This document shows, one piece after another, positions 1 to 34,911 of a stretch of 64,000 nt of DNA. The notes under the pieces were generated by a model that saw only the letters and a list, made by a program, of their open reading frames with translations, was not told the DNA's origin and did no database searches. Location of the stretch: NCBI GenBank assembly GCA_965263355.1, contig CBDHHL010000032.1, positions 2,272,001-2,336,000 on the forward strand. Reading direction: 5' to 3'. Both the position numbers and the translations under genes were made by a program. Origin of the DNA: Leptolyngbyaceae cyanobacterium (GTDB lineage: Bacteria; Cyanobacteriota; Cyanobacteriia; Phormidesmidales; Phormidesmidaceae). The stretch's first letter is position 1; each line of letters begins with the position of its first letter.

Positions 1-1092
1 TCGGGGTTAGAGCTGGCTTTAAAGGCCTTACAAATTACCCGCACTCTCCATGCTGGGGCTGCTCCTTCTCTTGGTCAAGCTGATACAGCGCTACGAGTAA
101 CATTAAATTTTGCCTTGTCTCGTCAGTTATATGGTCAATCTCTATGGGAGATGCCAAATGTGACCGATACTTTGGCAAATGCCTTTTTAGATATTTTGAT
201 GTGTGAGTGTCTCTCAATTACCGCTGTCAGATCCTTACACACGAGTCCTGATCAAATGAGTCTACTTTCTGCTGTTGTTAAATATTTTGTTCCAGATCGG
301 GTAGAATTACTGATTAATAATTTATCGGCTGTATTAGGCGCACGTTACTATTTGAGGGAAGAACACTGTTGGGGTATTTTCCAAAAAATTGTCAGAGACC
401 ATGCCATCGTCAGTGTATTTGATGGTAGTGCAGCCGTTAACTTGAATAGTATTGTTTTACAATTGCATCAATTGGCTAGTTGTCGAGCAACTATTCGAGA
501 AGATATTGATAACACAATTCATTCCTATCTTGATGCTACATATAATTTAACTAACACTCTGCCACACTTTAAGCCTCAACAACTAGAACTATACAATCGA
601 GGTTTTGATTATACGCTTCAGGGAGTTAACATTGCACTGGATCACCTATTGACATTGAAATCAACTGAGGATTTAGAGGCCAGTGTCCTGAATAACATTA
701 TTACACTTACCCAAAAACTGATAAACAAAATTCAGCAGCAGGATGCTCTAATCCTTGACTTAGGTGGACAATACATTGCTAAGTTAGGTAAATCTTCTGA
801 TTTATTTGAGTTAGCAAAATATTACTGTATTTTTCATGTGGCAGTAACCTGTGTATTGATCTGGGTATATAACCGACAGAACTTAGGTGGTTTTTTCGCT
901 CGGGGAGAATGGTTAGTTCTCTGTCTTAAACGACTGCTCAAAGATATCCGTTGTGAGAATATCTATCATGAGAAAGTCTTTGATCCTGATATTGATACTG
1001 AGAAAGCCTATTTTAGGAAGATTTGTGAGGAAGTACTGCGACTCCACAGGAATGGGCAACTGTTTTCTATCATCTCTTTGCAGTTAGGATAA
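1..1092 (+). CDS. Acyl-CoA/acyl-ACP dehydrogenase family protein (5'-truncated by window)
   Basis: Frame is open from base 1 (SGLELALKALQITRTLHAG...ADTALRVTLNFALSRQLYGQ). ACAD C-terminal features are present (R-x-L-Y-G; FQKIVRDHAIVSVFDGSAAVN). It sits upstream of desaturases and an ACP. Confidence 0.75.
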   Translation, partial: SGLELALKALQITRTLHAGAAPSLGQADTALRVTLNFALSRQLYGQSLWEMPNVTDTLANAFLDILMCECLSITAVRSLHTSPDQMSLLSAVVKYFVPDRVELLINNLSAVLGARYYLREEHCWGIFQKIVRDHAIVSVFDGSAAVNLNSIVLQLHQLASCRATIREDIDNTIHSYLDATYNLTNTLPHFKPQQLELYNRGFDYTLQGVNIALDHLLTLKSTEDLEASVLNNIITLTQKLINKIQQQDALILDLGGQYIAKLGKSSDLFELAKYYCIFHVAVTCVLIWVYNRQNLGGFFARGEWLVLCLKRLLKDIRCENIYHEKVFDPDIDTEKAYFRKICEEVLRLHRNGQLFSIISLQLG

Positions 1093-1161
1093 GGTTTTTA
1101 GTGAATGCCTATAGTTAGATGCCTGTAGTTAGATAATTAGTAGTTAGGTAGTTTAATAACC

Positions 1162-2127
1162 GTGGATAATCAGTTAGCTAATATTAAACGTGACTTTAAG
1201 AAGCCATTATCTAATATTCCTCATATCACTAGACTTAGGGTCTCTCAGCTCAGGCAAGAACGAAAAATTTTTGCAATGTCAATATTGCTGCCCTGTGTTG
1301 GTTTTTTAGGTATGCTGGCACTAGCTGTCTACTCAGGTATCTACTATCTTGATCTTGCTCTATTAGGAAGTTTTTTCCTGCTTACAGTCATTGGGATTGA
1401 AGTTGGTTATCATCGACTATTTTCCCATCATGCTTTTGAAACTACATCAGCCATTCAATTTCTGTTAGGCGTTGCTGGTAGCATGGCGTTACAGGGACCT
1501 GTTGTTTACTGGGCCAGTAATCATCGTCGTCATCATACCTGTAGCGATCAGTCTGACGATCCTCACTCACCCCAAGGACATGGTTCAGGTTGGCAAGGGT
1601 TGTTTCAGGGATTATGGCATGCTCATATTGGCTGGATATTTTCACCTGAGAGAACCTGTCCGGGGCACTATGGGCGAGACCTATTAGCTGATCCTATAAT
1701 TCAACAGATTGATCGTGGCTACCTCCTCTGGGTAAGCATAGGTCTGTTGTTACCTGCTCTTATTGGTGCCTGGGTCAATGGAGGGATGGGGAGTTTGCAT
1801 GGTTTTTTATGGGGAGGATTGGGACGTATCTTTCTTGTTCAACAGGGTACTTACAGCATTAATTCTTGCTGTCATAGCTTTGGGTCGCGTTTATTTAAGA
1901 CTGATGACCAGAGCACTAATAATCTCTGGTTGGCATTACCTACCTTGGGTGGTTCATTGCATAATACTCACCATGCTTTTCCTAATACAGCCACCAATAG
2001 AGTTCGATGGTGGCATCTTGATGTGAGTGGGTGGTTGATTCAAGCTTTGGCAAAGGTGGGTCTGGTTTGGAATATGAAAGTACCGTCATCACAGATGATT
2101 GAATCTAAGCTAATTAACCCTGGGTAG
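1162..2127 (+). CDS. Membrane fatty-acyl desaturase (delta9/JamB-like)
   Basis: Three His boxes HRLFSH, HRRHH, HNTHH; DPHSP and WHAHIGW motifs; hydrophobic segments. Confidence 0.9.
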   Translation: MDNQLANIKRDFKKPLSNIPHITRLRVSQLRQERKIFAMSILLPCVGFLGMLALAVYSGIYYLDLALLGSFFLLTVIGIEVGYHRLFSHHAFETTSAIQFLLGVAGSMALQGPVVYWASNHRRHHTCSDQSDDPHSPQGHGSGWQGLFQGLWHAHIGWIFSPERTCPGHYGRDLLADPIIQQIDRGYLLWVSIGLLLPALIGAWVNGGMGSLHGFLWGGLGRIFLVQQGTYSINSCCHSFGSRLFKTDDQSTNNLWLALPTLGGSLHNTHHAFPNTATNRVRWWHLDVSGWLIQALAKVGLVWNMKVPSSQMIESKLINPG

Positions 2128-2167: not shown

Positions 2168-3160
2168 ATGGTGAGTAGCGGTCACCATCCAAAGCCTTTA
2201 AAGGCTAGCGTATATATGTCGAAAACGTTGAATCATCCTCAAATCACAATCGTTAACGATTATTTGCAAGCAATACAGCAACGTCATGCTTTTGCAATTA
2301 CACTTTTGCCTCTGTTGGGTGTAGTACTTGCCGTTGTTCAGGTGTGGAACTATGGTATTAGTGCTGTCGATATTGCTGTCTTGCTGATTATGTACGGACT
2401 GACAGTAATTGGAGTAGAAGTAGGTCTACATCGGTATTTTTCTCACAAGTCTTTTGATACTCATCCACCGATACGTTGGGTGTTGGGTGTGCTGGGCTCA
2501 ATGGCCGCTCAAGGTCCATTGATTTATTGGGCGGCTAATCATCGCCGCCATCATCAATTTAGCGATCGCACCGGTGATCCCCACTCCCCTTATGAATACG
2601 GAGTACCTACTCAACAACGGTTAAAGGGACTTTGGCATGCTCATACAGGCTGGATGTTTCATCATACAACACCTAATCCAGCATTCTTTACTAAAGAGAT
2701 GTGTCAAGATACTTTAATTAATCAGATTGATCGTCTGTACTTAGGATGGGTTGCCTTAGGCTTGGGACTTCCTTCTGTTATCGTTGGATTGTTTACGCAA
2801 AGTTGGGCGGGGCTTTGGCTTGGATTTTTATGGGGTGGGTTAGTACGAATTTTTATTGTCAACCAAGGTGCCACTTTCTTTGTGAATTCTGTTTGTCATA
2901 CCTGGGGAAAACGACCATTTAATACCCAAGACTCAAGTACCAATAATATTTGGTTGGTCTTGGTTACCTTTGGGGGGGCCTGGCACAATAATCATCATGC
3001 CTTTCCAAATGCTGCGATGAATGATTTGGAATGGTGGCAGTTGGATTTGAGTGGTTGTCTTATTCGTGTACTCAAATGGATTGGTTGGGCCTGGAATGTT
3101 AAACAACCAACGAAGGCCATGATAGAAGCTAGAAAACATCAAAGTCTGGCATCTCCATAA
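2168..3160 (+). CDS. Second membrane fatty-acyl desaturase (delta9/JamB-like); start may be ATG 2216
   Basis: His boxes HRYFSH, HRRHH, HNNHH; clear paralogue of the upstream gene. Confidence 0.9.
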   Translation: MVSSGHHPKPLKASVYMSKTLNHPQITIVNDYLQAIQQRHAFAITLLPLLGVVLAVVQVWNYGISAVDIAVLLIMYGLTVIGVEVGLHRYFSHKSFDTHPPIRWVLGVLGSMAAQGPLIYWAANHRRHHQFSDRTGDPHSPYEYGVPTQQRLKGLWHAHTGWMFHHTTPNPAFFTKEMCQDTLINQIDRLYLGWVALGLGLPSVIVGLFTQSWAGLWLGFLWGGLVRIFIVNQGATFFVNSVCHTWGKRPFNTQDSSTNNIWLVLVTFGGAWHNNHHAFPNAAMNDLEWWQLDLSGCLIRVLKWIGWAWNVKQPTKAMIEARKHQSLASP

Positions 3161-3232: not shown

Positions 3233-3679
3233 ATGAGTATTTTAAATCAAATTTTGACCCGACAAGAGAGACTACAACCTGAAGCTCCTGTTGTTAAGTC
3301 AATAACATCCGAGGAAATTAAATTGTGGCTAATTTCTCAGCTTGCAGAGAGGTTGGAAGTTCCTTCTGAGTCAATTGATCCCCATAAAGATTTTGTGGAA
3401 TACGGCCTTAATTCGATTGAAGCTGTCAATCTTTCTGGAGGGTTAGAAAACTATCTAGGCTGTCGCCTCTCGCCTACATTGATTTGGGATTGTCCGAATA
3501 TTGAAACCCTGGTGCGGTATTTAGCAGAAGAGAATATCGCAGGAGATATTACATCTTTAACACAAAATGACCTTCAACTACGTGAAGTACAAAAACTACT
3601 GGCTAATATGGATCAACTATCTGATGAGTCTGTAGATATGTTATTAAATGTTATGTTGCCTGAGCAAGATGATCGATGA
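3233..3679 (+). CDS. Acyl carrier protein with C-terminal helical extension
   Basis: Phosphopantetheine site YGLNSIEAV (GLDS variant), LSPTLIWDCPNIETL typical of PKS-type ACPs; acidic tail LSDESVDMLL. Confidence 0.88.
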   Translation: MSILNQILTRQERLQPEAPVVKSITSEEIKLWLISQLAERLEVPSESIDPHKDFVEYGLNSIEAVNLSGGLENYLGCRLSPTLIWDCPNIETLVRYLAEENIAGDITSLTQNDLQLREVQKLLANMDQLSDESVDMLLNVMLPEQDDR

Positions 3680-3731: not shown

Positions 3732-5066
3732 ATGATGAGCATTCAACCACACATCAATAAGGTGAATCTCTCATCTCAGGAAAAACGTGCTCTACTGACA
3801 AAGTTATTGATGGAAAAAGCGCTTTTACCACCACTGTCGGTAGCCTCCTCAGATATTCCTTCTGAGTATTACTGTTTTGATCACTATTCAGGCTATCAGC
3901 AATTACAACAGCAACGCATCCAACTGCAAGCCTTAGGGTTAGAGAATCCTTATTTTGCAGTTCATGATCAGGTCGCTCAGAACACTACCCAGATAAATGG
4001 TAAAACATTTATAAATTACTCTACCTATAATTATTTGGGACTCTCAGGGCACCCTGCTGTTTCTAAAGCTGCTAAAGCTGCAATTGATCGTTATGGTACA
4101 TCGGTGTCAGCTAGCCGAATCGCCTCAGGTGAGAAAAAACTCCATCGAGAACTGGAGCAGGTCCTGGCAAAATTTCTAAATACGGAAGACTGTATTGTTT
4201 TTATTGGTGGCCATGCTACCAATGTATCCACCATTAGTCATCTGTTTGGGCGCAATGATTTGATCTTGCATGATGAGCTGAGTCATAACAGTATTTTGCA
4301 AGGGATTTTATTGTCGGGTGCCAGTGCGATCTCATTTCCCCACAATAACTGGCAGGCGCTAGATCGTCTTTTACAAGATCACCGTCATGCCTATCAACGG
4401 GTACTGATAGTCATTGAAGGCGTGTATAGCACTGATGGTGATATTCCAGATCTACCTCGATTTATCGAGGTTAAAAAACGCCATAAAACCTTTTTAATGG
4501 TGGATGAAGCCCATTCTATTGGTGTGTTAGGTAGCCAGGGAAGCGGTATTGGTGAATATTTTTCCGTAGATCGCACTGATGTAGATTTGTGGATGGGGAC
4601 CCTTAGCAAAAGTTTGGCCAGCTGTGGCGGATATATTGCTGGCAGTCAAGTGCTGGTAGACTATCTTAAATATACCGCCCCTGGTTTTGTCTATAGTGTC
4701 GGCATCTCGCCCGCCAATGCGGCGGCAGCCCTGGCAGCACTGCAACAGCTTCAATCTGAACCGGACCGTATTAGTCGTTTACATCAACGGGCCAACTTAT
4801 TTTTGAAGTTAGCCCAAAAGGCAGGCCTAAACACAGGCCTCAGTCATCATTCTGCTGTTGTACCCATTATTCTGGGTGATTCTCTACGATGTCTCCAACT
4901 AGCTCAATCATTATTCCAACAAGGAATTAACGTACAGCCATTGAGCGCACCCACGGTACCTGAAAAAACGTCTCGTTTGCGGTTCTTCATTAGCTGTCTA
5001 CATACAGAAGAGCAGATTCACTTTACTGTTGAAACCCTTATCCAGGCAGTGACAGATTTGCCATGA
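3732..5066 (+). CDS. Alpha-oxoamine synthase family PLP enzyme (SPT/BioF/RkpG-WcbT-like)
   Basis: YNYLGL, HNS, EGVYSTDGD, VDEAHS, GTLSKS (PLP Lys), RLRFF motifs. Confidence 0.9.
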   Translation: MMSIQPHINKVNLSSQEKRALLTKLLMEKALLPPLSVASSDIPSEYYCFDHYSGYQQLQQQRIQLQALGLENPYFAVHDQVAQNTTQINGKTFINYSTYNYLGLSGHPAVSKAAKAAIDRYGTSVSASRIASGEKKLHRELEQVLAKFLNTEDCIVFIGGHATNVSTISHLFGRNDLILHDELSHNSILQGILLSGASAISFPHNNWQALDRLLQDHRHAYQRVLIVIEGVYSTDGDIPDLPRFIEVKKRHKTFLMVDEAHSIGVLGSQGSGIGEYFSVDRTDVDLWMGTLSKSLASCGGYIAGSQVLVDYLKYTAPGFVYSVGISPANAAAALAALQQLQSEPDRISRLHQRANLFLKLAQKAGLNTGLSHHSAVVPIILGDSLRCLQLAQSLFQQGINVQPLSAPTVPEKTSRLRFFISCLHTEEQIHFTVETLIQAVTDLP

Positions 5067-5318: not shown

Positions 5319-6344
5319 ATGCAAGTGTTAGTGACTGGAGGTGCTGGTTACATTGGCTCCCATGTGGTCTATCAGTTAGAAAAGCAAGGGTATGATGTAG
5401 TTGTTTATGACAACTGTTCTGTCGGTAATCTAGCAAATGTCTTATCAGCAGACGTGCTTATCGGTGATCTAAAGGACATTGATAAACTTTCTAGTACATT
5501 TGCCAGATATCGATTCGATGCAGTACTTCACTTTGCTGCCAGCACAATTGTCCCTGAATCTATAACCTACCCGTTAGACTATTATCAAAATAATGTATGT
5601 GCCACGCTTAATTTGCTGCGTTGTTGCCAGACCTATCAGGTCAATCAGCTAGTTTTTTCGAGCACAGCAGCTGTGTACGGACATTCCCCCAATGAACCAA
5701 TAACGGAATCATTTCCCACATCACCGATTAATCCCTACGGACAATCTAAATTGATGTGTGAACAGATCATTCAGGATCATGCGCGGTCATCAGATTTACG
5801 TTGTACGATCCTGCGCTATTTCAATGTTGCTGGAGCTAATCCTCACATACCAGTAGGACAATCTGTACTTAATGCGACTCACCTGATCAAAGTTGTTTGT
5901 GAAGCTGCTGTCGGTAAGCGTCCTTGGGTGAAAATATTTGGTACCGACTTTCCAACCAGAGATGGAACAGGTATTCGAGACTATATCCATATAAACGATC
6001 TTGCTACAGCTCATTTGATTGCTTTAGAGTATTTATCCTCAGGAGGAACAACTGATATTCTGAATTGTGGCTATGGCAAAGGATACAGTGTTCGAGAGGT
6101 GGTCGAAGCTGCAAAAAGATTGTCTGGCATTGACTTTCCAGTCATCGAAACCGAACGACGTCCAGGCGACCCAGCTTGTTCGATTGCTGCTTCAGAACGG
6201 ATTCGACGGATATTGGGATGGCAGCCTCAACACGATGCACTAGACGTTATCGTTAGCAGTTCTTTAGCTTTGGAACAGCAACTATTACAGAATAATGGAC
6301 ACGCAGACAATAAGTACCCTGTGCCTCAAATAAAATGTTTATGA
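5319..6344 (+). CDS. galE: UDP-glucose 4-epimerase
   Basis: VTGGAGYIGSH, HFAA, FSSTAAVYG, YGQSK, LRYFNVAGA, DGTGIRDYIH motifs. Confidence 0.9.
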   Translation: MQVLVTGGAGYIGSHVVYQLEKQGYDVVVYDNCSVGNLANVLSADVLIGDLKDIDKLSSTFARYRFDAVLHFAASTIVPESITYPLDYYQNNVCATLNLLRCCQTYQVNQLVFSSTAAVYGHSPNEPITESFPTSPINPYGQSKLMCEQIIQDHARSSDLRCTILRYFNVAGANPHIPVGQSVLNATHLIKVVCEAAVGKRPWVKIFGTDFPTRDGTGIRDYIHINDLATAHLIALEYLSSGGTTDILNCGYGKGYSVREVVEAAKRLSGIDFPVIETERRPGDPACSIAASERIRRILGWQPQHDALDVIVSSSLALEQQLLQNNGHADNKYPVPQIKCL

Positions 6345-6356: not shown

Positions 6357-7238
6357 TTGCAACAGTATTTTTTACCATTGGGCATAACGTTATGCAAAAT
6401 AAAGATTGAAATACTAGCTATGAATATATTTAGCAAGAGATTCATAGGTCCTCTAGTTATGCAAAATCAGATCAAAATTATCAGGAAATTCTATCTTAAT
6501 GCTAATCTGATTTTTAGTTGGCTTCTATCCACAAGACTAATTCTTATACTTGGTTGCCAAAGGAGTGGGACGACATTAACTCATATGCTAATATCGTCGC
6601 ATCCAAAAATTGATGGGAAAGATGAGAGCGAAATTGGATTTGATTTTCCAAATTGGAAATTTCTAATTTGCTCCTTTTTGAAAGGGCATTACCTTAGCTG
6701 TAAGTTGCCAACAAAAACTCCAGAACTTGAGTCAATAATCCATAAATTTCCCCATGCGACAGTTGTATGGGTAACCAGGAATCCGCTGAGTGTTGTTTCA
6801 TCGATGAAAACCTTAAAAATTGGTGACACAACCAATTGGCTGCAAAAACATGGTAAAAGTGAACTTTTGAGACATGGGAAAATTTTTCCTGAACTTATGG
6901 CGATTGATTTTGAGCGGACGGATCAGATTTCATTGGGTGCGTATATTTGGAAGTACAAGCTGAAAACCAGGCAATTATATACTGATTCTCCCTTAAGAAA
7001 CTTTTCCTTTGTCTATGAGGATCTTGTCGCAAATCCGAAGAAAGAGATAACTCCAATGCTAAAGGATTTAGAACTTAACTGGAATGATAAGATTCTAAAC
7101 CACGAAGAAGTTCATCGTGGCAAAAGATATCCTGGCCGTACGATTGGCAGTAGGCCGATCGATCAAAGCAGAATCAATCCAACTTTAAATCTGGATGAGG
7201 ATGAGATCAAACGAGTGCGAAGTATACTAAAAGACTGA
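6357..7238 (+). CDS. PAPS-dependent sulfotransferase (likely start ATG 6420 or 6459)
   Basis: GCQRSGTT 5'-PSB loop, RNPLSVVSS 3'-PB, YEDLV. Confidence 0.8.
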   Translation: MQQYFLPLGITLCKIKIEILAMNIFSKRFIGPLVMQNQIKIIRKFYLNANLIFSWLLSTRLILILGCQRSGTTLTHMLISSHPKIDGKDESEIGFDFPNWKFLICSFLKGHYLSCKLPTKTPELESIIHKFPHATVVWVTRNPLSVVSSMKTLKIGDTTNWLQKHGKSELLRHGKIFPELMAIDFERTDQISLGAYIWKYKLKTRQLYTDSPLRNFSFVYEDLVANPKKEITPMLKDLELNWNDKILNHEEVHRGKRYPGRTIGSRPIDQSRINPTLNLDEDEIKRVRSILKD

Positions 7239-7913: not shown

Positions 7914-9245
7914 ATGATCTTATTTGAGAATAAACTGGGCCAGCTTATATCCCAGGGTGCTGCCTATGATTGCGATGGTTGGGGACAGCTGACGACAGAT
8001 ACCCTAAGCTGGTCTGTTAATGGAAAACACTATGCCCTTGCTCTGGCCGATACTGTCGGTGTGTCAGCTTGTGATTCCACAGAAAAACAGGGAGGTTTGT
8101 GTTTTGAAGTGTATGCTTATCCGCTAGTGTCTACTAAGCGATGGTTCCAAACCATCGCTTGCTCCAAACGGGTATTGCGAACCTATAAATTTGTTTGTCC
8201 AAAAGCTGAGGTGCGATCGCAATGGCTGCAATCCCTTCAATATGTTCTGAACCAGAGGCCGATCCAGGAAAACTCAAAACCACGTCACCTGCACATTATA
8301 CTCAACCCCACTAGTGGTAAAAGACAGGCCCAGAAGATCTATCAGCTGATTAAACCAATCTTTGAAAACAGCAATATTCAGATTACCCTAACCCAGACCA
8401 CCTCCATCAACCATGGCTTTGAACTCGCTAGAACTCTACCCCTAAATGAGTTAGATGGTTTGGTGGTTATTGGTGGAGACGGTACTTTATACGAAGTCAT
8501 TAATGGCCTTATGGAGCGGCCCGATTGGCAAACGGCTATTCAAACTCCCATTGGCATTATGCCAGCCGGTACTGGAAACGGTTTATGTAAAACCCTTTTA
8601 GAGCAGGCAGGTGAACCCTATGATCCCATTAGTGCCGCGTTTCTAATTGCCAAAGGCAAAACCTATCCCATAGACCTTATTGCTATTGAGCACTGTGGGA
8701 AACGTTATCACAGTTTTCTCTCCTTAGAATGGGCCATAGCCAGTGATGTAGACATCGGGTCAAATTATCTGCGATTTCTGGGTTCCCTCAGACACATGCT
8801 CTATGCCCTGTTTTGTATCCTACGTTTCCGAGTATATAAGGGGCGTTTTTCCTTCTTGCCTGCCCACCCACCCCACCTTCAGTTACACAGCCATGGGAGT
8901 AGCCCTTGGCAAACTATTGAAGATGACTTCATTTTCTTCTGGGCCATGAACATAAAATGGGCTGCCCACGATATGCAAATAGCTCCCCACGCGCAGTTAG
9001 ATAATGGTACTATAGACGTCATTCTGATTCGTAAGGGCATCTCTCGATTGCAGTTATTAATCGCGTTTCTAAAAACTGCTACGGGAGAATACATAAACAT
9101 GGAGAAAATAGAATACTACAGGGTAACGAGTTTCTTGCTAGAACCCCTAACATCAACAGGAATTTTGGCCGTAGATGGAGAGCAGATTGACTACAGCCCA
9201 CTCCAAGCTAATGTTAAGAAAGGCCTAGCCTGCATCATGGGTTAA
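7914..9245 (+). CDS. Eukaryote-type sphingosine/ceramide kinase (DAGK_cat) with PH-like N-terminal domain
   Basis: LNPTSGK, GGDGTLYEVINGLMERPDWQTAIQ, PAGTGNGL, SDVDIGS, VDGE; closely resembles SPHK1/plant SPHK motifs as I recall them. Confidence 0.85.
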   Translation: MILFENKLGQLISQGAAYDCDGWGQLTTDTLSWSVNGKHYALALADTVGVSACDSTEKQGGLCFEVYAYPLVSTKRWFQTIACSKRVLRTYKFVCPKAEVRSQWLQSLQYVLNQRPIQENSKPRHLHIILNPTSGKRQAQKIYQLIKPIFENSNIQITLTQTTSINHGFELARTLPLNELDGLVVIGGDGTLYEVINGLMERPDWQTAIQTPIGIMPAGTGNGLCKTLLEQAGEPYDPISAAFLIAKGKTYPIDLIAIEHCGKRYHSFLSLEWAIASDVDIGSNYLRFLGSLRHMLYALFCILRFRVYKGRFSFLPAHPPHLQLHSHGSSPWQTIEDDFIFFWAMNIKWAAHDMQIAPHAQLDNGTIDVILIRKGISRLQLLIAFLKTATGEYINMEKIEYYRVTSFLLEPLTSTGILAVDGEQIDYSPLQANVKKGLACIMG

Positions 9246-22101: not shown

Positions 22102-22193
22102 CTTAAATGATAACTTTGGTTGTTAGACTCTCCAGATTTTTTTATGCTCATTCTATTCCTGGATGTTGACTAGAATGTGGCTTATAACCTGTT

Positions 22194-23123: not shown

Positions 23124-23286
23124 GATATGAAGATGCCATATTATCCAAGTTACTTGGCCCCAACAATGTTTAACTCATTGCTTGGTCTCAAAACCTGACC
23201 TGCAATCTCAAATACTATACCTTTTGGGCAAAGTAAGAAATCGCTTTTTCAAAGACTTAATCAATAGAGGGGCCTATAAGTATTCC

Positions 23287-24348: not shown

Positions 24349-24416
24349 AGAAGCTCATATTTTTTGATGCTCAATAATGAAGTCACCTATGTTGACAAAA
24401 ATCATGAGATAGGAAG

Positions 24417-27542: not shown

Positions 27543-28385
27543 TTAAAGCCCTACCCTATCCAGCTTCCATCGTGAGATATCAAATTCATAGTTCACTTCT
27601 AACCTACGCAAATCATCACGGAGTTCACGGTAAACAAAGTTTCGCTGTTCTGATGAAAGTTTTACATGGTGGGTTATGCTATGTCCTAGCTTACGTTTTA
27701 GACTATCTCTAAGTGTTTCTGACAGCAATCCAGTCATTGGTTGGATAAAGGGCCATAGTTTACCTTCTATGACTTTGCCCTTAGTCGGATGGTAGTTCCT
27801 AGCAATATCTTTGAATATATAGGATGTGTCTAATGCTAACCATCGACATACATGCTCTAAAAGCTGTAGAGGATTATCTCTTAAATCATTAAAGTTCAAC
27901 AGAATAATTTGATCTTTAGAAAATCTCTGACAATAATTGTCTAACTGCTTTGCATATCTAGATATTTCTATCAGTTTTTGATCGATGCCGCTGTTGAGAA
28001 GTTTAAGGTCTTTTCCCCAACGGGTACTCAATGCATGGGTGTAATGGGACTCAATTCGTTCGATAGGATCCCGCATGATGTATATAAATCTAAAATCATA
28101 AGTAAACTGAGTTTGGAATTGAAAAATGCGTTCGACTACAGTTGAGGTATGCATTTTTGTATAGCTTGTGGAGCCTTCCAATGCAATTCTATGAATACTG
28201 GAATCGTAGCTCCAGAGTTGTTTATACCAGTCAGCCCCTTTGCTATAAGTCCCGTCTTCTGAGAAGAAATGAGGTTCTTTTTTGGGTTCGCAAGGGCATA
28301 TTTGAGGATGTTCTGCTAGATATTTAAAGAGGCTGGTGGTGCCACTTTTCATGGCTCCGATGATGAGTGCAAATTTGTTGATCAT
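27543..28385 (-). CDS. Sulfotransferase (heparan-sulfate 3-O/N-ST-like motif)
   Basis: IIGAMKSGTTSL, KEPHFF, EGSTSY, RDPIERIESHY; ATG 28385 preferred. Confidence 0.85.
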   Translation of the reverse strand: MINKFALIIGAMKSGTTSLFKYLAEHPQICPCEPKKEPHFFSEDGTYSKGADWYKQLWSYDSSIHRIALEGSTSYTKMHTSTVVERIFQFQTQFTYDFRFIYIMRDPIERIESHYTHALSTRWGKDLKLLNSGIDQKLIEISRYAKQLDNYCQRFSKDQIILLNFNDLRDNPLQLLEHVCRWLALDTSYIFKDIARNYHPTKGKVIEGKLWPFIQPMTGLLSETLRDSLKRKLGHSITHHVKLSSEQRNFVYRELRDDLRRLEVNYEFDISRWKLDRVGL

Positions 28386-28408
28386 TAAACTGCTCAAAAA
28401 CTGCTCGA

Positions 28409-29443
28409 ATGAATAGCGCCTGGCAAATAACGTGTAACTTGCGTATCCGACAATTAGCTAGCCAATTAATCAATAATCATCCGTGGAAGTACCGTATTCG
28501 ACCTATCACCTGGTGGAACGTTCCCAGCTGGGTAAAACAAACTATTAAACAAGATAGACGATTTTACCGAATCCGACCAAGACCCCCTTCAGTATCGCGA
28601 GTTCGCCATTTTATTTCACCCAATCTGTCAAACCCAATTTTTATTGTTGGTGCTCCTCGTTCTGGAACAACCTTTCTAGGACAGTGTATATCTGAATTAC
28701 CTCAGCTTAGCTACCATTTTGAACCGGTGTTAACTAAGGCCGCTGTTCGCTATATTTACACCCAGCAATGGTCGCCTAAAAAAGCTCAGCACTTTTATCG
28801 TCAGGTTTACACTGGGCTTATGCGTTTGTATCTAGATGGCGATCTCTGCTTTTGTGAAAAAACTCCTCGGAATAGCTTTATTCTTCCATTTCTCTATCAA
28901 ACCTTTCCAGATGCACGATTTGTTCACATTATTAGGGATGGGCGAGATGTTGCACTTTCACTATCGCAGCAACCCTGGTATCGTAACGATCGGCAAGGAT
29001 CAAGCGAGAAGGAGCCTGGGGGGTATCCATTTGGTCCGTCTGCACGCTTTTGGGTTGAACCTAATCGTACCCGAGAGTTTGAAACAACTAACGATCTGCA
29101 TCGCTGTATTTGGTTATGGCGTTGTTATGTAGAAAGCGCTAGGTCAGGAAGTGGGGCAATTCCCCCATCACAATACTATGAGCTTAGGTATGAAGACCTG
29201 GTGCAAGAGCCTGGTCGAGAAGCAACACGATTATTAGATTTTCTCAACATTACGGTTGAATCCTCTCAGATAGCCTTTAAACAAGCCGTTGTTACCAAGG
29301 CGCGACAAAACTCTATTGGGCAGTGGCGGCAAAATATCTCATCGCGCACTCTCAATCAAATGTATGCTGAGTCGGGGCAATTGCTTGAGTGCTTAGGCTA
29401 TACTGCGGTGGATATCAATGAACCTCTGATCCCTGATTCCTGA
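28409..29443 (+). CDS. Sulfotransferase
   Basis: VGAPRSGTT, EKTP, RDGRDVALS, RYEDLV. Confidence 0.87.
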   Translation: MNSAWQITCNLRIRQLASQLINNHPWKYRIRPITWWNVPSWVKQTIKQDRRFYRIRPRPPSVSRVRHFISPNLSNPIFIVGAPRSGTTFLGQCISELPQLSYHFEPVLTKAAVRYIYTQQWSPKKAQHFYRQVYTGLMRLYLDGDLCFCEKTPRNSFILPFLYQTFPDARFVHIIRDGRDVALSLSQQPWYRNDRQGSSEKEPGGYPFGPSARFWVEPNRTREFETTNDLHRCIWLWRCYVESARSGSGAIPPSQYYELRYEDLVQEPGREATRLLDFLNITVESSQIAFKQAVVTKARQNSIGQWRQNISSRTLNQMYAESGQLLECLGYTAVDINEPLIPDS

Positions 29444-29487
29444 CCACTATCCTCAAGAAATTCTTCCGCCTTGAGCTGATACCCTAA

Positions 29488-30618
29488 TTAGCTCGCGGAA
29501 AGTACAAATTTATAGACCTCAATTGTCTTTTGAGTAATATAGTCCCAGGTCCATAATTGAGCCGTTTCAAAATTATGTTGACCCATTTTGGGTAAGTGCT
29601 CTCGTTGTGCGATCGCAGATTTAATAGCATTAACCAAACCATCCTGAGTTGCAGGATCATATAAAAAAGCCCCTGCTGGATCCAAAATATCCTTAAAAAA
29701 GCCTGTGTTAGGAGCAATACAGGCTTTTTTGAATGACATAGCCAGGACGGCCACACCGGATGCTGTAAATAGCGTATAGGGTAAAACCACTACATCGCTG
29801 GCATTCATATAAACCTGAATCTTCTCCTCAGGAATAGGGGCGGGAGGATCAACTAGTGAAACATTGGGGCAATTGGCTGCTTTTTCAAGAATTGTCTCAC
29901 GCATATCATCAGGCAGTTGACCCGTGATAATCAATTGGGTCATCCCATGGTCTACACCCTTAAATGCTTCAATGGCTTCTACTACGCCTTTACTACGATG
30001 AATACTGCCAAAATGTAAAAAAACAATAGATTCAGGCTCAATTCCTAATTGCTGTCTAGCAACGTCACGTTCAATTTGGTTTGGATAGGTTTCGATGTAA
30101 TTGTGATGGGGGATCGTAAAAATTTTCTTTGTATAGTTCTGGCCCAAAGCTGCCGTTTTTATGATTGTGTTTTTGGATGAGTCACAGTGGGTGATCATGG
30201 CCCCTAAAATCGCGCCTAAAATTTTAGTTTGAAGGGGAGATGGGGTGTAGTTGCCACTAGCCGTTGTCTTATCAATCCATTCGTGAACTGTCCAGATGAT
30301 TTTCACACCAACTAAACGTAAAAGTAAGACCTGACAAGTAAATATTGAAAATCTAAACCATCCATGAATGACGTTGGACGCTAAAAAGTGCTGCACAAAT
30401 TGAATATGCAGAATGGTAATATCCTTAAATAGAAAATTGTGGAAAAAGATCAAGGAAGGTGCATGGATGCTAGCCTTCAGACCCTTGGCATTTAAGTTTG
30501 CAATCAGGCAATCTTGATAGGGATTAAATTCCCAAGACGTTGACAGGAAAATTACTCGTATTGCCTGATTAAGGTTAGTACTTTGAGCAAAAAAATACTT
30601 TAAACATGAGAAAAGCAC
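29488..30618 (-). CDS. Glycosyltransferase family 4
   Basis: NPYQ, WTVHE, FGSIHRSKG, ASDVVVLPY, SGVAVLAMSF. Confidence 0.85.
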   Translation of the reverse strand: MLFSCLKYFFAQSTNLNQAIRVIFLSTSWEFNPYQDCLIANLNAKGLKASIHAPSLIFFHNFLFKDITILHIQFVQHFLASNVIHGWFRFSIFTCQVLLLRLVGVKIIWTVHEWIDKTTASGNYTPSPLQTKILGAILGAMITHCDSSKNTIIKTAALGQNYTKKIFTIPHHNYIETYPNQIERDVARQQLGIEPESIVFLHFGSIHRSKGVVEAIEAFKGVDHGMTQLIITGQLPDDMRETILEKAANCPNVSLVDPPAPIPEEKIQVYMNASDVVVLPYTLFTASGVAVLAMSFKKACIAPNTGFFKDILDPAGAFLYDPATQDGLVNAIKSAIAQREHLPKMGQHNFETAQLWTWDYITQKTIEVYKFVLSAS

Positions 30619-30680
30619 AAATCAGAATCCTATTGCCTATTGTTAAATAAGTCTTTCTATAAAAATAAACTAATAAAAAG

Positions 30681-31391
30681 TTACCGCTTAAAAATTTCTT
30701 TTAAGCTAGTGTAGACGCTGCCAATTAAGTGTTTTGGAGGCACGTTTTCGTATTTCCATATAGTACTCTCAAAGTCACTCAAAACAGCAACATTAGGATA
30801 CATGCCGTAAGAAATGAGGTTGGTCAGATATGTTCTCCCCGTTAAACCATCGGCAGCCCATCTGATCGGATAGGCATTATTCAATAGTTTAGTTGCACCT
30901 TTGCGAGTGACTAGATACAAGCAAGCCCGATTGGCATATTCTTGATGCCTCGAAAATCTATAACCATCAAAGACAAATGGCCCAAACGGCTGTTGTCTGA
31001 CATCAGTTAGAAAATTTATAAATTCATAATCCTTGGGGAATTTCGATTTTCTTTCCAAAATCTTAAATAGCAATGGGTTAATTTCAACATCATCTTCTAA
31101 CACTAGAACTTCTTCGATACCCTCTTTAACAATTCTTTCCCAAATTCTGGCATGGGAAAGGGCACACCCTATTTCACCAAATCCTAGCCTTCTTCCACAG
31201 GAGTATATGGCAGCTTGTTGGGAATAGTGACTTAAATCTTGTTTACTTAGGGTCTTACCATCAACACCTGCGATGATTTCATAGGTGACATTGAGGACAT
31301 TTAACTGTTCTTGCATAAATGCGCGTCTTTCATGATCACGTTGCAGATTCAACACCCACACCGGGATTTGGTTTATGGCTTGTATCATCAT
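30681..31391 (-). CDS. Glycosyltransferase family 25 (Lex2/LgtB-like)
   Basis: VLNLQRDHERR, GVDG, GEIGCALSH, VLEDD. Confidence 0.9.
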   Translation of the reverse strand: MMIQAINQIPVWVLNLQRDHERRAFMQEQLNVLNVTYEIIAGVDGKTLSKQDLSHYSQQAAIYSCGRRLGFGEIGCALSHARIWERIVKEGIEEVLVLEDDVEINPLLFKILERKSKFPKDYEFINFLTDVRQQPFGPFVFDGYRFSRHQEYANRACLYLVTRKGATKLLNNAYPIRWAADGLTGRTYLTNLISYGMYPNVAVLSDFESTIWKYENVPPKHLIGSVYTSLKEIFKR

Positions 31392-31404
31392 TTATCACCT
31401 GTGC

Positions 31405-32178
31405 CTAACGTAACGTAGTTGGATGGAATCCCAAGCTAAAACCCGTGAATTTACGGGAGGAACATGGGTTTTCAAACCTATCTATATAGTCGGTATACCC
31501 AAACGTATCAATATCTTTTTGATATCGCTCAGCCACCCAGGCCCAGGTTTGATAGTCATAATAGTCCAGGTAAGAGACTGGAGGCTTTTTTTTTCTAAGA
31601 CTCAGTAACCGCTTAAACCGCATCACTAACGACCTGGTCTCTGGCAATCTTTTACCTGAAGACTGGTTGACGTGGGATAAGTCTGGTAGTTGCCTATTGA
31701 TACGGTTACGTATTAGCTCGAAATCATGTTCTAATCGCTCAAAACGCCCAATAAAGTCAACCAGACAGGTTTTGTCGGCATCAAACAGATACTCATACTG
31801 TGGCATAACGTGACGCCAAACATCTGTCCAGCCTGGTTTTGGAAATGCTTTCTTCAGCCAGTATTTAAATGTATATTTGTTGTAATGCCCTCGCCAATTG
31901 TATTCAGAAACTAATCGTTCCCATGGATTCCGTACAAAGGAAAATTTGAAATACTTTGTAAATTCCTGGGGACTAATGTACCCATATGAAAGATATTCTT
32001 TTGCTGTGAGGTGGGCGAGTATGGGCGGCCCTTTAGCAGGGTCATGGTTAGGTCTTAGGAGCAGGGTATGTCGATACTCCCAAGGTATGTTAAGGAACTG
32101 GAGAAAACATTGTTCAATGCTCTGTCCGGCAGTTTTTGGAATGTGAATAAAAAGACTATTTAAGGGGTATATTAACAT
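31405..32178 (-). CDS. Sulfotransferase family 2 (HNK-1/chondroitin-ST-like)
   Basis: FIHIPKTAGQSI, FSFVRNPWERLVSEY, HVMPQ, FIGRFERL, DIDTFGY. Confidence 0.87.
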   Translation of the reverse strand: MLIYPLNSLFIHIPKTAGQSIEQCFLQFLNIPWEYRHTLLLRPNHDPAKGPPILAHLTAKEYLSYGYISPQEFTKYFKFSFVRNPWERLVSEYNWRGHYNKYTFKYWLKKAFPKPGWTDVWRHVMPQYEYLFDADKTCLVDFIGRFERLEHDFELIRNRINRQLPDLSHVNQSSGKRLPETRSLVMRFKRLLSLRKKKPPVSYLDYYDYQTWAWVAERYQKDIDTFGYTDYIDRFENPCSSRKFTGFSLGFHPTTLR

Positions 32179-32184
32179 TAACTG

Positions 32185-33519
32185 TTAGTGCATATAGTTA
32201 CGGTTCAGCGTGCTACAGCGAGCAACGCATTCTGTGGCAAACGGTACCAAGTGGGTAAGGTTTAACTCACGTAAACTCTTTAAGATGTGTTCCCTGGCTA
32301 GGGCTGATTGAGTAACGGTTTGGGGAATTATCCACTGAAGCCATTGTTTGATATCGGTATCACGGGCTGCCAAATATTGAATACGATTCCACCGATTGCC
32401 CATTTTTGACTGTATTGAATGCAGATAAGACACTAAGGCATCTTCATTAAAGATAGGAAGTCCCTGGCACCTATTCAAATTACCGTTGGGGTGAATACTA
32501 CAAAGTATACCTTGACTAACGTCAATGTATGAAACTTTGTTAGTGCGAGCAGTCAAAAGATTTTTAGCAAGGCGAAAGCCGGGTCTGCGCACCAGAACAT
32601 GGACTTGACCAACGGATCGACCTAATAGTTGTAGCCCATACAGGGCAGACCCTTCCGAGAAAATTAGTTGGTCAGCGGCGGCGTATGTGGCTATTTGCTC
32701 ATTGAGCGGTAAGGTTTCGGGGCGCATGACTTGAATGCCGACAGATTGCATTAATCTTTCAAGATAAGCTTCCCCGGCAAAATGAATTTTGACACCAGCT
32801 CTAGAGACGAAAATAATCCCCTGGCAAGGACATTTAGGTAACTTTCTATCGACGTGCTCGTCTACGAGGTCAAGATACTTTGATGATGGGCCATACTGTT
32901 CCAAATTAAGCTCTTTTGAGGGTGGACCATACTTAATGAGTTGCTCGGCCTGGGGAGCCACCAATAGATCACGTACTGATGTGGGTTGGGTGATCATTTT
33001 GACCCTGTCAGGTTGGAGGTTATACCAACTTAAGAGCGAGCGAAATAAGACTGGTGTTTGTGCCAGGGTTGTATATTGCTTACTTGCTTTAGACGAAAAT
33101 AGAAATTTTATCTTGGGGTAAGCGTTTCGAGTTTGCAGAATACGTGTGCTAAAGTCTGCGATTTGATGGCCAAAATGATTGACAATCGCTCCACACCAAG
33201 CGCTTGGTTCTGTTATGGAGTCAGTGTTGTTGTCGTGTAGCATTGTTGGTAAGTCGTCAATGGGGTGCCCGTTACGACAATGCCGCGCCTCCAATTGATG
33301 ATCCCAATTTGGCCAAAGGGGACCTCCTTGATGGGCAGAAAAGCCCAAAGGTCTTTCCAATAGATGTTGATAGGGAGTAATTAAAATGTTTTCAAAAGCA
33401 AGAATTTTCCCTAACGATGCTTTGTTGGTCCGCAACGCCAACGACGTTATCGATGTCGATATAGTGTTGGAATAAAGGTTGCGAGCTGCCCTCTGAAGAT
33501 TGAAAGATATACAAGGCAT
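32185..33519 (-). CDS. GT61/DUF563-like glycosyltransferase
   Basis: NHFGHQIAD, IFVSR, PETLPLNEQIATY, FSEGSALY. Confidence 0.7.
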   Translation of the reverse strand: MPCISFNLQRAARNLYSNTISTSITSLALRTNKASLGKILAFENILITPYQHLLERPLGFSAHQGGPLWPNWDHQLEARHCRNGHPIDDLPTMLHDNNTDSITEPSAWCGAIVNHFGHQIADFSTRILQTRNAYPKIKFLFSSKASKQYTTLAQTPVLFRSLLSWYNLQPDRVKMITQPTSVRDLLVAPQAEQLIKYGPPSKELNLEQYGPSSKYLDLVDEHVDRKLPKCPCQGIIFVSRAGVKIHFAGEAYLERLMQSVGIQVMRPETLPLNEQIATYAAADQLIFSEGSALYGLQLLGRSVGQVHVLVRRPGFRLAKNLLTARTNKVSYIDVSQGILCSIHPNGNLNRCQGLPIFNEDALVSYLHSIQSKMGNRWNRIQYLAARDTDIKQWLQWIIPQTVTQSALAREHILKSLRELNLTHLVPFATECVARCSTLNRNYMH

Positions 33520-33747
33520 CGAAAACCTGCTGACATATCAACTTAAGTACATGGTTTACATGGTGTTAAGAATACCCACTTTCCAGGGATAGCAACCGAT
33601 AGCGAACAATCTGTTATTGCTAGCGTGTAACCAACATATTTTATTGATATAGTTTTTGGTCTTTGGGAATACTAGGCAGGCCTTTCAATGGGCGCTACCA
33701 AGAGTATACATTCTCAAAATCTTGGATAATAGGGGCCTAATGTCCTA

Positions 33748-34911
33748 ATGATATTTTCTAAAGTTCCTTTAGCATGGTTACAACTCGCTAGAAATAAGAC
33801 ACGACTCTTAGTGGCTCTTATGGGGATTGCTTTCGCAGTAATCCTTATTTTCATGCAATTGGCATTCTTAAACTCGTTGTACGAAAGTCAAACAGCAGTA
33901 CATACTCGTCTTAAGGGTGACCTGGTAATGGTCAATGCCAATCTAAAAACCCTGGTTAATACGGTAGATTTTAACCGGATTAATCTTTATCGCAGCTTAA
34001 ATTTCCCAGAGGTCAAATCTGTTAACTATATTTACCATGGTCAAATCGCCCTAAAATATGGGAACAAGCGAGGGGCTAAAGGTATTGTTACGTTAGGTAT
34101 TAACCCGGAAAATTCTCCGTTTGATTTACCCACATTAGATCCTTTACTCAGTCAGCTTCTGACTTTAGATACCGTTATTTTTGATGCTAAATCTGATTTG
34201 AATGAGTACGGTGATATTGTTGGGGATTTTAATGCAGGAAAATCTGTCACCCTTGAGGCAGAGGTTCGACAAGTGCATGTGCGTGGAGTTGTCGATTTTG
34301 CAGGTGCCTCATTTGGCGATGATGGTAATTTGATAATGAGTACGGCTACTTTCCAACATGTAACTCCTTGGAGAAATGCAGATAAGATTACCATTGGTTT
34401 AATTACGTTAATGCCTGGCACTGATCCACAAGTAGCTATTAATAAGATAGACTCGCAGCTTCCGCCTAATATACGAGTGATGACGGTGCAAGATTTTATC
34501 AATCTTGAGAAAAAATACTGGTCTACCAGCGCACCTATTGGGTTTATCTTTGGAATAGGAACATTAGTTGGCTTTTTGGTAGGTGTTGTGATTGTTTATC
34601 AAGTGCTTTACAACGAAGTAAACGATCATCTTCCCGATTATGCCTTACTCAAAGCCAGAGGGTATAAGCAGCGTTACTTTTCTGGCATTCTTTTTCAGGA
34701 AGCATCGATCCTGGCTGTATTGGGTTATATTCCAGGTTTTGCAATTTCTTTGGGACTATACGATGTCACCCAAAGTTCTACGGCTTTACCTATTTATATG
34801 ACCCTATATCGAGGTGTTTTTGTCTTTCTATTGACACTGGCAATGTGCTTTACGTCTGGAGCAATTGCGATGAATAAGCTTCAGGAAGCTGATCCCGCCG
34901 ATCTTTTTTAA
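33748..34911 (+). CDS. devC: DevC-family ABC exporter permease
   Basis: PLAWLQL, GIAFAVILIFMQL, PIGFIF, GVVIVYQVLY, KLQEADPADLF. Confidence 0.88.
   Translation: MIFSKVPLAWLQLARNKTRLLVALMGIAFAVILIFMQLAFLNSLYESQTAVHTRLKGDLVMVNANLKTLVNTVDFNRINLYRSLNFPEVKSVNYIYHGQIALKYGNKRGAKGIVTLGINPENSPFDLPTLDPLLSQLLTLDTVIFDAKSDLNEYGDIVGDFNAGKSVTLEAEVRQVHVRGVVDFAGASFGDDGNLIMSTATFQHVTPWRNADKITIGLITLMPGTDPQVAINKIDSQLPPNIRVMTVQDFINLEKKYWSTSAPIGFIFGIGTLVGFLVGVVIVYQVLYNEVNDHLPDYALLKARGYKQRYFSGILFQEASILAVLGYIPGFAISLGLYDVTQSSTALPIYMTLYRGVFVFLLTLAMCFTSGAIAMNKLQEADPADLF

What the first reader, a model, noticed from the sequence alone, without database searches (positions are those of the whole stretch)
1..34911. Candidate cyanobacterial sulfated glycosyl-inositol-phospho-sphingolipid pathway
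Seen: one contiguous cluster with ACAD, two desaturases, ACP and an SPT/AOS-family enzyme; a kinase, cytidylyltransferase and PI-synthase trio; about 11 GTs, 5 sulfotransferases, 2 acyltransferases, and HepA-like and DevC exporters. No Wzx/Wzy/Wza/KpsMT genes are in the window. Known: AOS enzymes condense acyl-ACP with an amino acid (SPT gives sphingoid bases), Caulobacter builds ceramide-phosphoglycerate through a ceramide kinase (CpgB) with predicted CDP activation and head-group transfer, and cyanobacterial membranes are normally described as MGDG/DGDG/SQDG/PG. Inference: an unsaturated long-chain base or ceramide is phosphorylated, CDP-activated, joined to inositol, then glycosylated, fucosylated, sulfated and exported, giving a GIPC/ganglioside-like surface glycolipid or glycan anchor.
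Basis: partly seen in the sequence, partly recalled or inferred. Interest (0 to 1): 0.92.

Follow-up and report, generated by a model that had tools for sequence, protein, structure and literature searches.

The report
Cyanobacterial inositol-sphingolipid gene cluster
A cyanobacterium carries genes that most likely build a sphingolipid, phosphorylate it, activate it with CTP and attach inositol, giving a lipid of the kind known from fungi and plants, while the sulfated-sugar genes next door are probably a separate surface-glycan block.

Summary
The genes are there as listed. The AOS belongs to the clade of Pseudomonas SgaB, a proven serine-specific SPT, not to BioF. The kinase is a eukaryote-type sphingosine/ceramide kinase. 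The CDP-alcohol transferase is a eukaryote-type PI synthase, and the third gene is CarS-like. In one cyanobacterial family (61 genomes), 38 have the kinase; PI synthase, CarS-like enzyme and inositol-phosphate synthase are each intact in 36 of those 38 and in none of the other 23 (one CarS fragment). This is only about three independent changes. One other genome joins kinase, CarS-like enzyme, KDSR, FAAL-ACP-AOS and INO1 in one 12-kb locus. Best reading: long-chain base or ceramide, then 1-phosphate, then CDP-lipid, then inositol-phospho-sphingolipid. No step is shown biochemically; the N-acylating enzyme is unidentified. The glycan half is not supported by synteny: none of the 18 glycosyltransferase, sulfotransferase and acyltransferase genes has a homolog in 275 lipid-gene loci elsewhere. 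The scan already reported the three-gene module on other DNA (e1-3076504). New here are the link to an SPT-clade enzyme and KDSR, and the complementary archaeal-type synthase.

The parts
1..1092 (+). Acyl-CoA/acyl-ACP dehydrogenase, C-terminal part; gene begins before base 1
   Evidence: PF00441 1.2e-13; homologs are ~600 aa and sit in FAAL-ACAD-ACP modules
1162..2127 (+). Membrane fatty-acyl desaturase 1
   Evidence: PF00487; His boxes
2168..3160 (+). Membrane fatty-acyl desaturase 2
   Evidence: PF00487; His boxes
3233..3679 (+). Dedicated acyl carrier protein
   Evidence: PF00550; homologs are fused to or beside the AOS
3732..5066 (+). Alpha-oxoamine synthase of the SgaB/WcbT/RkpG clade; predicted serine acyltransferase
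   Evidence: Best PDB hit S. multivorum SPT 1e-68; clade apart from BioF and KBL; motif blocks match PfSgaB by eye
5319..6344 (+). UDP-glucose 4-epimerase GalE
   Evidence: TIGR01179 above cut-off
6357..7238 (+). Sulfotransferase 1, inside the lipid block
   Evidence: PF13469
7338..7892 (-). CarS-like membrane cytidylyltransferase
   Evidence: PF01864 5e-10; Atlas CarS-like; top Foldseek hit 5GUF, prob 0.87, TM 0.54, E 0.9
7914..9245 (+). Eukaryote-type sphingosine/ceramide kinase with an N-terminal domain (about residues 1-113) whose secondary structure looks PH-like
   Evidence: SPHK1 2e-47 vs bacterial DgkB 4e-11; Foldseek; model (PH label is my reading)
9252..9896 (-). Eukaryote-type phosphatidylinositol-synthase homolog
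   Evidence: PF01066; 39% over 213 aa to Komagataella PIS; prokaryotic models score only ~30 bits
10114..16163 (.). Six GT or GT-like genes: GT2, GT10 fucosyltransferase, unassigned, GT25, GT4, unassigned
   Evidence: link to the lipid not shown
16574..25505 (.). AT3-SGNH acyltransferase, ASPIC/FG-GAP protein, GT61, sulfotransferase 2, AT3, GT2 (HpsE-like, below cut-off)
25600..27450 (-). HepA-family ABC exporter
   Evidence: NF045513 860 bits, cut-off 725
27543..33519 (.). Sulfotransferases 3-5, GT4, GT25, GT61
33748..34911 (+). DevC permease without DevA/DevB
   Evidence: TIGR01185; 60% to the DevC of an AOS-KDSR locus, L307

Best explanation
Two modules share one low-GC island. Module 1 (1-9896) builds an inositol-phospho-sphingolipid. 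(a) A fatty acid is loaded on the dedicated ACP by a FAAL outside the window (inferred). (b) The ACAD and two desaturases unsaturate the ACP-bound chain; a 2,3 double bond of the acyl chain would become the 4,5 bond of the base (inferred from chemistry only). (c) The AOS condenses it with serine to a 3-keto long-chain base (clade membership shown; activity shown only for PfSgaB). (d) A KDSR outside the window reduces it (seen in other genomes). (e) The kinase phosphorylates the base or a ceramide at C1. (f) The CarS-like enzyme makes a CDP-sphingolipid. (g) The PI-synthase homolog transfers it to myo-inositol supplied through INO1 (seen in other genomes). N-acylation is unassigned; a distinct stand-alone adenylating enzyme that travels with INO1 and CarS is my candidate. 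Module 2 (10114-34911) makes and exports a sulfated, fucosylated, O-acylated surface glycan whose lipid carrier is not shown to be this lipid.
For: Enzyme identities: kinase; SPHK1 D81/S168/D178 positions kept in 120, 119 and 120 of 120 homologs; AOS; PIS; CarS. Profile in 61 genomes: kinase 38; PIS, CarS and INO1 each intact in 36 of those 38 and in 0 of 23 others, bar one 39-aa CarS fragment. Physical links in different orders: L231 has kinase, CarS, GT4, Stealth, LicD, KDSR, FAAL-ACP-AOS, second FAAL, INO1; L229/L230 have kinase, radical SAM, PIS, INO1, FAAL; L005/L188 have KDSR, CarS, kinase; INO1 and FAAL lie beside CarS in 13 of 13 wide loci. Two kinase-positive genomes without the eukaryote-type PIS carry an archaetidylinositol-phosphate-synthase-like gene instead, found in 0 of 61 family genomes and 0 of 3 further controls. 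A dedicated kinase and cytidylyltransferase would be redundant if the product were ordinary PI (inference).
Against: No lipid or activity was measured. The 38/23 split is only 3 changes on a tree of 39 genomes. AOS clade (58 of 61) and KDSR (56 of 61) occur regardless of the trio. G002 has kinase, CarS, INO1 but no SgaB-clade AOS was found; G330 lacks both AOS clade and CarS, G338 lacks CarS; completeness of these assemblies was not given. INO1, KDSR and FAAL could not be checked in the window's own genome. A YghO-type ceramide synthase was found in 1 of 5 positive genomes. The ACAD-desaturase-desaturase-ACP-AOS order was seen in none of 17 ACAD-centred and 17 AOS-centred loci. The AOS is below every NCBIfam SPT cut-off. 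The CarS fold match is weak by E-value.
Confidence: 0.55

Rival explanations
1. One pathway: the inositol-phospho-sphingolipid is the anchor on which the GTs, fucosyltransferase, sulfotransferases and acyltransferases build a sulfated glycan, exported by HepA and DevC.
For: All genes lie in one low-GC stretch, with a sulfotransferase and GalE inside the lipid block. An ABC flippase is present and no Wzy/Wzx or initiating sugar-phosphate transferase was hit. The same AOS clade sits in capsule loci of Pseudomonas and Sinorhizobium. Of 17 AOS-centred loci, 4 have DevC and 2 have a sulfotransferase beside the AOS. GT4, Stealth and LicD lie inside L231.
Against: No homolog of the window's 5 sulfotransferases, 11 GT or GT-like genes or 2 acyltransferases at tblastn E<1e-10 in 275 loci, 2.27 Mb (many loci reach only 1.5 kb each side). 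In most positive genomes the trio is scattered among housekeeping genes. Genes are on mixed strands.
Confidence: 0.2
2. The trio and INO1 make an inositol lipid on a non-sphingoid backbone (diacylglycerol, acylglycerol or an ether lipid); the AOS product is a separate aminolipid.
For: PIS and CarS families are defined on glycerolipids. Acylglycerol kinase is the next PDB hit, 8e-19. AOS is not tied to the trio in profile, and was not found in G002 or G330.
Against: SPHK1 scores 28 orders of magnitude better and its D178/S168 positions are kept. KDSR lies beside kinase and CarS in L005, L188 and L231; AOS lies beside them in the window and L231.
Confidence: 0.17
3. The ACAD-desaturase-ACP-AOS block makes a small polyunsaturated amino-ketone or amino-alcohol secondary metabolite (or is BioF-like) and the island is a chance collection of envelope genes.
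For: Top NCBIfam score is BioF, 366 bits, below the 426 cut-off. Some members of the clade are PKS-fused or carry methyltransferases. The gene order is unique among loci seen.
Against: Genomes hold a separate ~385-aa BioF at 38-41% identity. The window enzyme falls in the SgaB-type clade with 99-100 support.
Confidence: 0.08

Closest known systems
PfSgaABC of Pseudomonas fluorescens MYb115 (PMC12134224)
   Same: AOS of the same clade, proven there to be a serine-specific SPT; a KDSR-type reductase; sphinganine product with a phospho head group
   Different: Acyl chain comes from a PKS there, from an ACAD/desaturase/ACP block here; head group is phosphoglycerol there, predicted inositol phosphate here; cyanobacteria are not mentioned in its main text
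Bacteroides thetaiotaomicron BT_1522-BT_1526 inositol phosphoceramide pathway (PMC9246714)
   Same: MIPS/INO1 plus a CDP-alcohol transferase leading to an inositol sphingolipid
   Different: Bacteroides goes through PIP-DAG/PI-DAG and an AUR1-like synthase, or a proposed CDP-inositol route; no AUR1-like gene is in this window, and a kinase plus CarS-like enzyme point to activation of the lipid itself
Caulobacter crescentus CpgA-D ceramide phosphoglycerate pathway (10.1101/2023.05.01.538943; PMC12275187)
   Same: Ceramide is phosphorylated by a kinase before the head group is completed
   Different: CpgB is a bacterial clade apart from eukaryotic kinases; the CDP species shown is CDP-glycerate; CpgC mechanism unknown. 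The preprint mentions cyanobacterial hCERK homologs in one sentence, without function
Archaeal CarS plus archaetidylinositol-phosphate synthase route (PMC4634129)
   Same: Lipid phosphate, CDP-lipid, inositol lipid; CarS fold; two genomes use the archaeal-type synthase
   Different: Backbone there is an isoprenoid glycerol ether
Sinorhizobium rkpA-G-H and Burkholderia wcbR-T type capsule loci (gene names recalled; context)
   Same: Same AOS clade (49-56% identity) with an SDR 42% identical to the cyanobacterial KDSR, beside surface-glycan genes
   Different: PKS-fed, KpsMT/Kdo-type capsule context; no kinase, CarS or PIS seen in those two loci

Membership tests
SgaB-type serine palmitoyltransferase | Falls in the PKS/ACP-associated AOS clade, apart from BioF and KBL | tested here: met
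   Trees with E. coli SPT/BioF/KBL, cyanobacterial BioF and a Pseudomonas PKS-AOS proxy; PfSgaB itself compared by eye only
SgaB-type serine palmitoyltransferase | PLP catalytic residues (His, Asp-x-x-His, Lys motif, Arg) intact | tested here: met
SgaB-type serine palmitoyltransferase | Condenses L-serine with a long acyl thioester | not testable with these tools
   needs enzyme assay
Canonical bacterial Spt (NCBIfam NF047599/600/603) | Score above curated cut-off | tested here: not met
   325/640, 298/500, 228/670 bits
BioF | Groups with cyanobacterial BioF; above TIGR00858 cut-off | tested here: not met
   366/426 bits; separate clade
Eukaryotic sphingosine kinase | Catalytic Asp and substrate-pocket Ser/Asp (SPHK1 D81, S168, D178) | tested here: met
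   window D189, S270, D280; numbering counted from the alignment; substrate role of S168/D178 partly recalled, D81/D178 ligand contacts
Eukaryotic ceramide kinase | CxxxCxxC motif | tested here: not met
   0 of 120 homologs; 23 of 120 have a Cx5CxxC variant, not the window protein
Eukaryotic sphingosine/ceramide kinase | Phosphorylates a long-chain base or ceramide | not testable with these tools
   needs assay
Eukaryote-type PI synthase | CDP-alcohol signature and full-length similarity to eukaryotic PIS | tested here: met
Eukaryote-type PI synthase | Uses CDP-DAG and free myo-inositol | not testable with these tools
   donor predicted to differ
CarS-like cytidylyltransferase | PF01864 above cut-off and CarS fold | tested here: met
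   40 bits vs 22; 5GUF top Foldseek hit but E 0.9; below archaeal NF003114 cut-off
Spt-bCerS-CerR ceramide pathway | bCerS (YghO-type, assignment recalled) present | tested here: inconclusive
   not in the window; 1 of 5 positive genomes; own genome not held
Bacteroides/yeast IPC pathway | AUR1-like IPC synthase | tested here: inconclusive
   no PAP2/AUR1 hit among 50 window ORFs; not searched genome-wide
GIPC-like glycosylated inositol sphingolipid | Glycan built on the inositol head | tested here: inconclusive
   no synteny of the window's GTs with lipid genes elsewhere
Wzx/Wzy or KpsMT polysaccharide locus | Wzx, Wzy, Wza/Wzc or KpsMT in the cluster | tested here: not met
   Wzy is hard to detect by HMM

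The most novel reading that the evidence does not exclude
The whole 35 kb is one pathway: a polyunsaturated sphingoid base is made on a dedicated ACP, N-acylated by an adenylating enzyme unrelated to known ceramide synthases, CDP-activated, joined to inositol and extended into a sulfated, fucosylated GIPC-like glycolipid that anchors the cyanobacterial surface glycan.
Probability: 0.2. Interest if true: 0.9.

Novelty: new variant of a known kind. Interest (0 to 1): 0.7.

Why it matters
A 2022 paper states that only two ceramides and no sphingolipid enzyme are known from cyanobacteria, and it tested the BioF gene (PMC8895605). The SgaB-type AOS clade, with KDSR, gives a testable genetic basis; a Moorena ACP-AOS is among its members (P0439), and a cerebroside was reported from that genus. 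The kinase, CarS-like enzyme, PI synthase and INO1 add a predicted route to inositol phosphoceramide through a CDP-activated sphingolipid, which differs from the AUR1 route of fungi and Bacteroides. Two of the enzymes have eukaryotic nearest named or solved relatives, which bears on the history of sphingolipid and inositol-lipid metabolism; direction of transfer was not tested. Most genomes of one family of cyanobacteria carry it, so lipid biomarkers and envelope biology would be affected.

Tried and rejected
- Own genome: not held, so INO1, KDSR, FAAL and ceramide synthase were not checked there.
- No kinase match in plasmids.
- PDB sequence searches for PIS and CarS gave 0 hits. The N-terminal AOS fragment search ranked KBL first and did not discriminate.
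- Family of G285 held 3 genomes (1 positive); family of G002 gave 2 of 23 and no further joined locus.
- ACAD homologs (16 of 321 genomes, 17 loci) are FAAL-ACAD-ACP(-MBOAT) modules without AOS, so they gave no support for the window's order.
- INO1 was found in 0 of 5 genomes that have the AOS clade but no kinase.
- Sequencing runs: no RNA holder listed. Runs X4, X5 and X7 gave only short pieces.
- The careful tree did not finish; the quick tree was used. Searches are FastTree. Nine near-duplicate rows were left out.
- fetched a prophage region by mistake and was not used. The second CarS fold search did not run.
- G302 was an unintended handle, negative.
- Literature: searches found no paper on this module. 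'CDP-ceramide' occurred in 0 of the 9 papers listed, but that search needed 2 of 3 terms and the library lacks most subscription papers.
- Complex prediction was not used; no binding claim is made.
Full report
Observation. The ACAD frame is open from base 1, so the cluster begins before the window. Nine GTs have Pfam hits and two more ORFs are GT-like or unassigned. There are five sulfotransferases, two acyltransferase-3 genes, a HepA-family ABC transporter above cut-off and a lone DevC. The stretch is lower in GC than the rest (0.402 vs 0.456) and changes strand often. Phycocyanin genes downstream mark the host as a cyanobacterium. No genome is held for the window. One contig of another run of the same study spans 3748-9393.

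The AOS. It scores below every curated cut-off (BioF 366/426; SPT models 325/640, 298/500, 228/670), and its best PDB hit is S. multivorum SPT. In trees it lies in a clade of ACP-, FAAL- and PKS-associated enzymes (99-100 support), apart from cyanobacterial BioF, KBL and E. coli SPT. The same genomes hold a separate BioF at 38-41% identity. A Pseudomonas PKS-linked AOS (55.7%) and a Sinorhizobium RkpG-like protein (48.7%; name recalled), both in capsule loci, fall in this clade. PfSgaB is a proven serine-specific SPT (section 8 of PMC12134224). Its sequence, printed in the supplement, matches the window protein in all motif blocks I compared by eye; I did not align it by program. The lead to this paper came from earlier finding e1-2769973. 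The clade was found in 20 of 321 sampled cyanobacterial-phylum genomes and 58 of 61 genomes of one family.

The kinase. Best hits by sequence and fold are human SPHK1 (2e-47; TM 0.65-0.83), far above bacterial DAG kinases. The positions of SPHK1 D81, S168 and D178 are kept in 120, 119 and 120 of 120 homologs. The ceramide-kinase CxxxCxxC motif is absent from all 120, though 23 carry a Cx5CxxC variant. The N-terminal 113 residues form a strand-rich domain ending in a helix, which I read as PH-like. A free base is the likelier substrate, ceramide is not excluded. The CpgB preprint notes cyanobacterial hCERK homologs in one sentence. The kinase is rare in the phylum sample (4 of 321); all four are among the 20 with the AOS clade, but three belong to one family.

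PI synthase and CarS-like enzyme. Of the ten next-best 50%-clusters looked up for the transferase, four carry names, all eukaryotic, three of them named PI synthases; it is 39% identical over 213 residues to the Komagataella enzyme, and prokaryotic models score about 30 bits. Eukaryotic enzymes use free inositol, prokaryotic ones inositol phosphate. The 184-aa gene passes PF01864, sits with CarS-like Atlas clusters, and its model's top Foldseek hit is archaeal CarS 5GUF, with a weak E-value of 0.9.

Co-occurrence. In the 61-genome family of G001 the kinase is in 38. PIS is in 36 of those 38 and 0 of 23 others. CarS is in 36 of 38 (one cut by a contig end) and, among the 23, only as a 39-aa fragment in G380. 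INO1 is in 36 of 38 and 0 of 23. These genes are mostly unlinked in this family, so the match is not due to one cassette. But on a tree of 39 genomes (38 of the 61 plus G261) the state changes only three times, so the table is not 61 independent trials. KDSR, a reductase whose best PDB hit is TSC10, is in 56 of 61 regardless of the trio. The picture is a common long-chain-base core with an optional inositol head-group module.

Physical links. G285 joins, in 12 kb, kinase, CarS, GT4, Stealth, LicD, KDSR, a FAAL-ACP-AOS fusion, a second FAAL and INO1; its PIS is on another contig. G330 and G338 have kinase, a B12 radical-SAM gene, PIS, INO1 and FAAL; the same radical-SAM family follows the AOS in 3 of 17 AOS-centred loci. 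L005 and L188 have KDSR, CarS and kinase. INO1 and a FAAL flank CarS in 13 of 13 wide loci, chosen for contig length from 36. The window's closest AOS, kinase and PIS relatives share one longest-contig length, 150,747, probably one contig; not fetched. G002 and G005 have kinase, CarS and INO1 but no eukaryote-type PIS; both carry a gene nearest to archaetidylinositol-phosphate synthase (below cut-off), found in 2 of 5 genomes, 0 of 61 and 0 of 5 (two of them also in the 61). That looks like replacement by a non-orthologous enzyme for the same step.

Against. G002 showed no SgaB-clade AOS; G330 lacks it and CarS, G338 lacks CarS. These may be assembly gaps, which I could not check. A YghO-type ceramide synthase (role recalled) was found in 1 of 5 positive genomes. 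The INO1-linked FAALs form their own branch, apart from ACP-loading FAALs, with members that are second FAALs at AOS loci and one in a trio-negative genome; this makes them a candidate for N-acylation, nothing more. The window's ACAD-desaturase-desaturase-ACP-AOS order was not seen elsewhere; ACAD homologs sit in FAAL-ACAD-ACP modules.

The glycan block. None of the window's sulfotransferases, GTs or acyltransferases has a homolog at E<1e-10 in 275 loci (2.27 Mb) around the lipid genes of other genomes; many of these loci are short. So the block is not part of the conserved module. Some hints keep the anchor idea alive: DevC in 4 and a sulfotransferase in 2 of 17 AOS loci, 60% identity of the window's DevC to that of an AOS-KDSR locus, the capsule context of this AOS clade in proteobacteria, and no Wzy/Wzx or initiating transferase hit in the window.

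Mechanism and odds. An inositol-phospho-sphingolipid made through a CDP-activated lipid has about 0.75 in total: 0.55 with a separate glycan block and 0.20 as its anchor. A non-sphingoid inositol lipid has 0.17; an unrelated metabolite 0.08. Family identities and gene links are shown; every reaction is inferred.

What is known. Papers seen: PMC8895605 (abstract, introduction, passages); PMC12134224 (passages, section 8, passages of supplement file 11; files 1-4 searched without hits, the rest, including the cluster-distribution table that might list cyanobacteria, not seen); 10.1101/2023.05.01.538943, PMC12275187, PMC9246714, PMC4634129, PMC8560647 (passages); PMC11324152 (term search, no hits). 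Bacterial inositol phosphoceramide is known from Bacteroides by an AUR1-like route, and ceramide phosphorylation from Caulobacter. Ten searches found no description of this module or of a CDP-sphingolipid, within a library that lacks most subscription papers. The scan itself noted the trio on another genome (e1-3076504) and similar modules in other phyla; these are unchecked notes, not support.

Verdict. A real and well-supported candidate for a new variant of inositol-sphingolipid synthesis in a phylum with no characterised sphingolipid enzyme; the sulfated GIPC extension remains a minority reading. Interest 0.70.

Noticed in passing
L216-L228 (e.g. L216:7647-11714): In the G001 family the ACP-AOS fusion sits directly after a group-2 sigma factor gene and often before a SigF/SigJ-type one (Pfam; subtype names recalled); sigma neighbour in 26 of 30 AOS loci.
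   Followed up: partly
L365:5001-8867 (G285:C6): A divergent AOS, a YghO-like protein (32% to E. coli) and an NAD-dependent epimerase in a row: looks like a canonical Spt-bCerS-CerR set in a cyanobacterium that also has the SgaB-clade enzyme.
   Followed up: partly
L309, L311, L312, L302, L305: PKS-AOS and FAAL-ACP-AOS loci carry lipid A-type tailoring genes: PagL-like barrel, LpxO-like hydroxylase, PMT/ArnT-like transferase, GT4, pointing to an outer-membrane aminolipid.
   Followed up: no
L318-L351: A FAAL-ACAD-ACP module followed by a DltB/AlgI-like MBOAT gene recurs in about 11 of 17 loci (by N-terminal likeness; one scanned): candidate long-chain acylation of a polysaccharide.
   Followed up: partly
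L306:12004-15750; L307:11997-19899: FAAL-ACP-AOS and KDSR followed by two UgtP-like glycosyltransferases; L307 adds a second FAAL, a Wzx-family flippase and DevC/DevA: candidate cyanobacterial glycosylceramide locus.
   Followed up: partly
L361-L364: A Kbl/Tdh-like pair within an amino-acid catabolism cluster in four family genomes.
   Followed up: no
P0097: A full-length member of the kinase family is named from Thiorhodovibrio, a gammaproteobacterium; context not fetched.
   Followed up: no
window:18864-20816: ASPIC/UnbV plus FG-GAP repeat protein in the middle of the glycan block; role unknown.
   Followed up: no
window:35303-36187: A third desaturase just past DevC with higher GC3 (0.55), probably outside the island.
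   Followed up: no
window:50171-62505: Two phycocyanin cpcBA sets with four rod-linker genes, pcyA and a GAF histidine kinase with two response regulators between them: looks like a chromatic-acclimation locus.
   Followed up: no
window:37322-47574: DUF4347/beta-propeller/DUF4114 protein, Na+/H+ antiporter, HpnA-like epimerase and a TPS-CHAT protein.
   Followed up: no
P0246: A 410-aa tandem duplication of a PI-synthase domain among the transferase's relatives.
   Followed up: no
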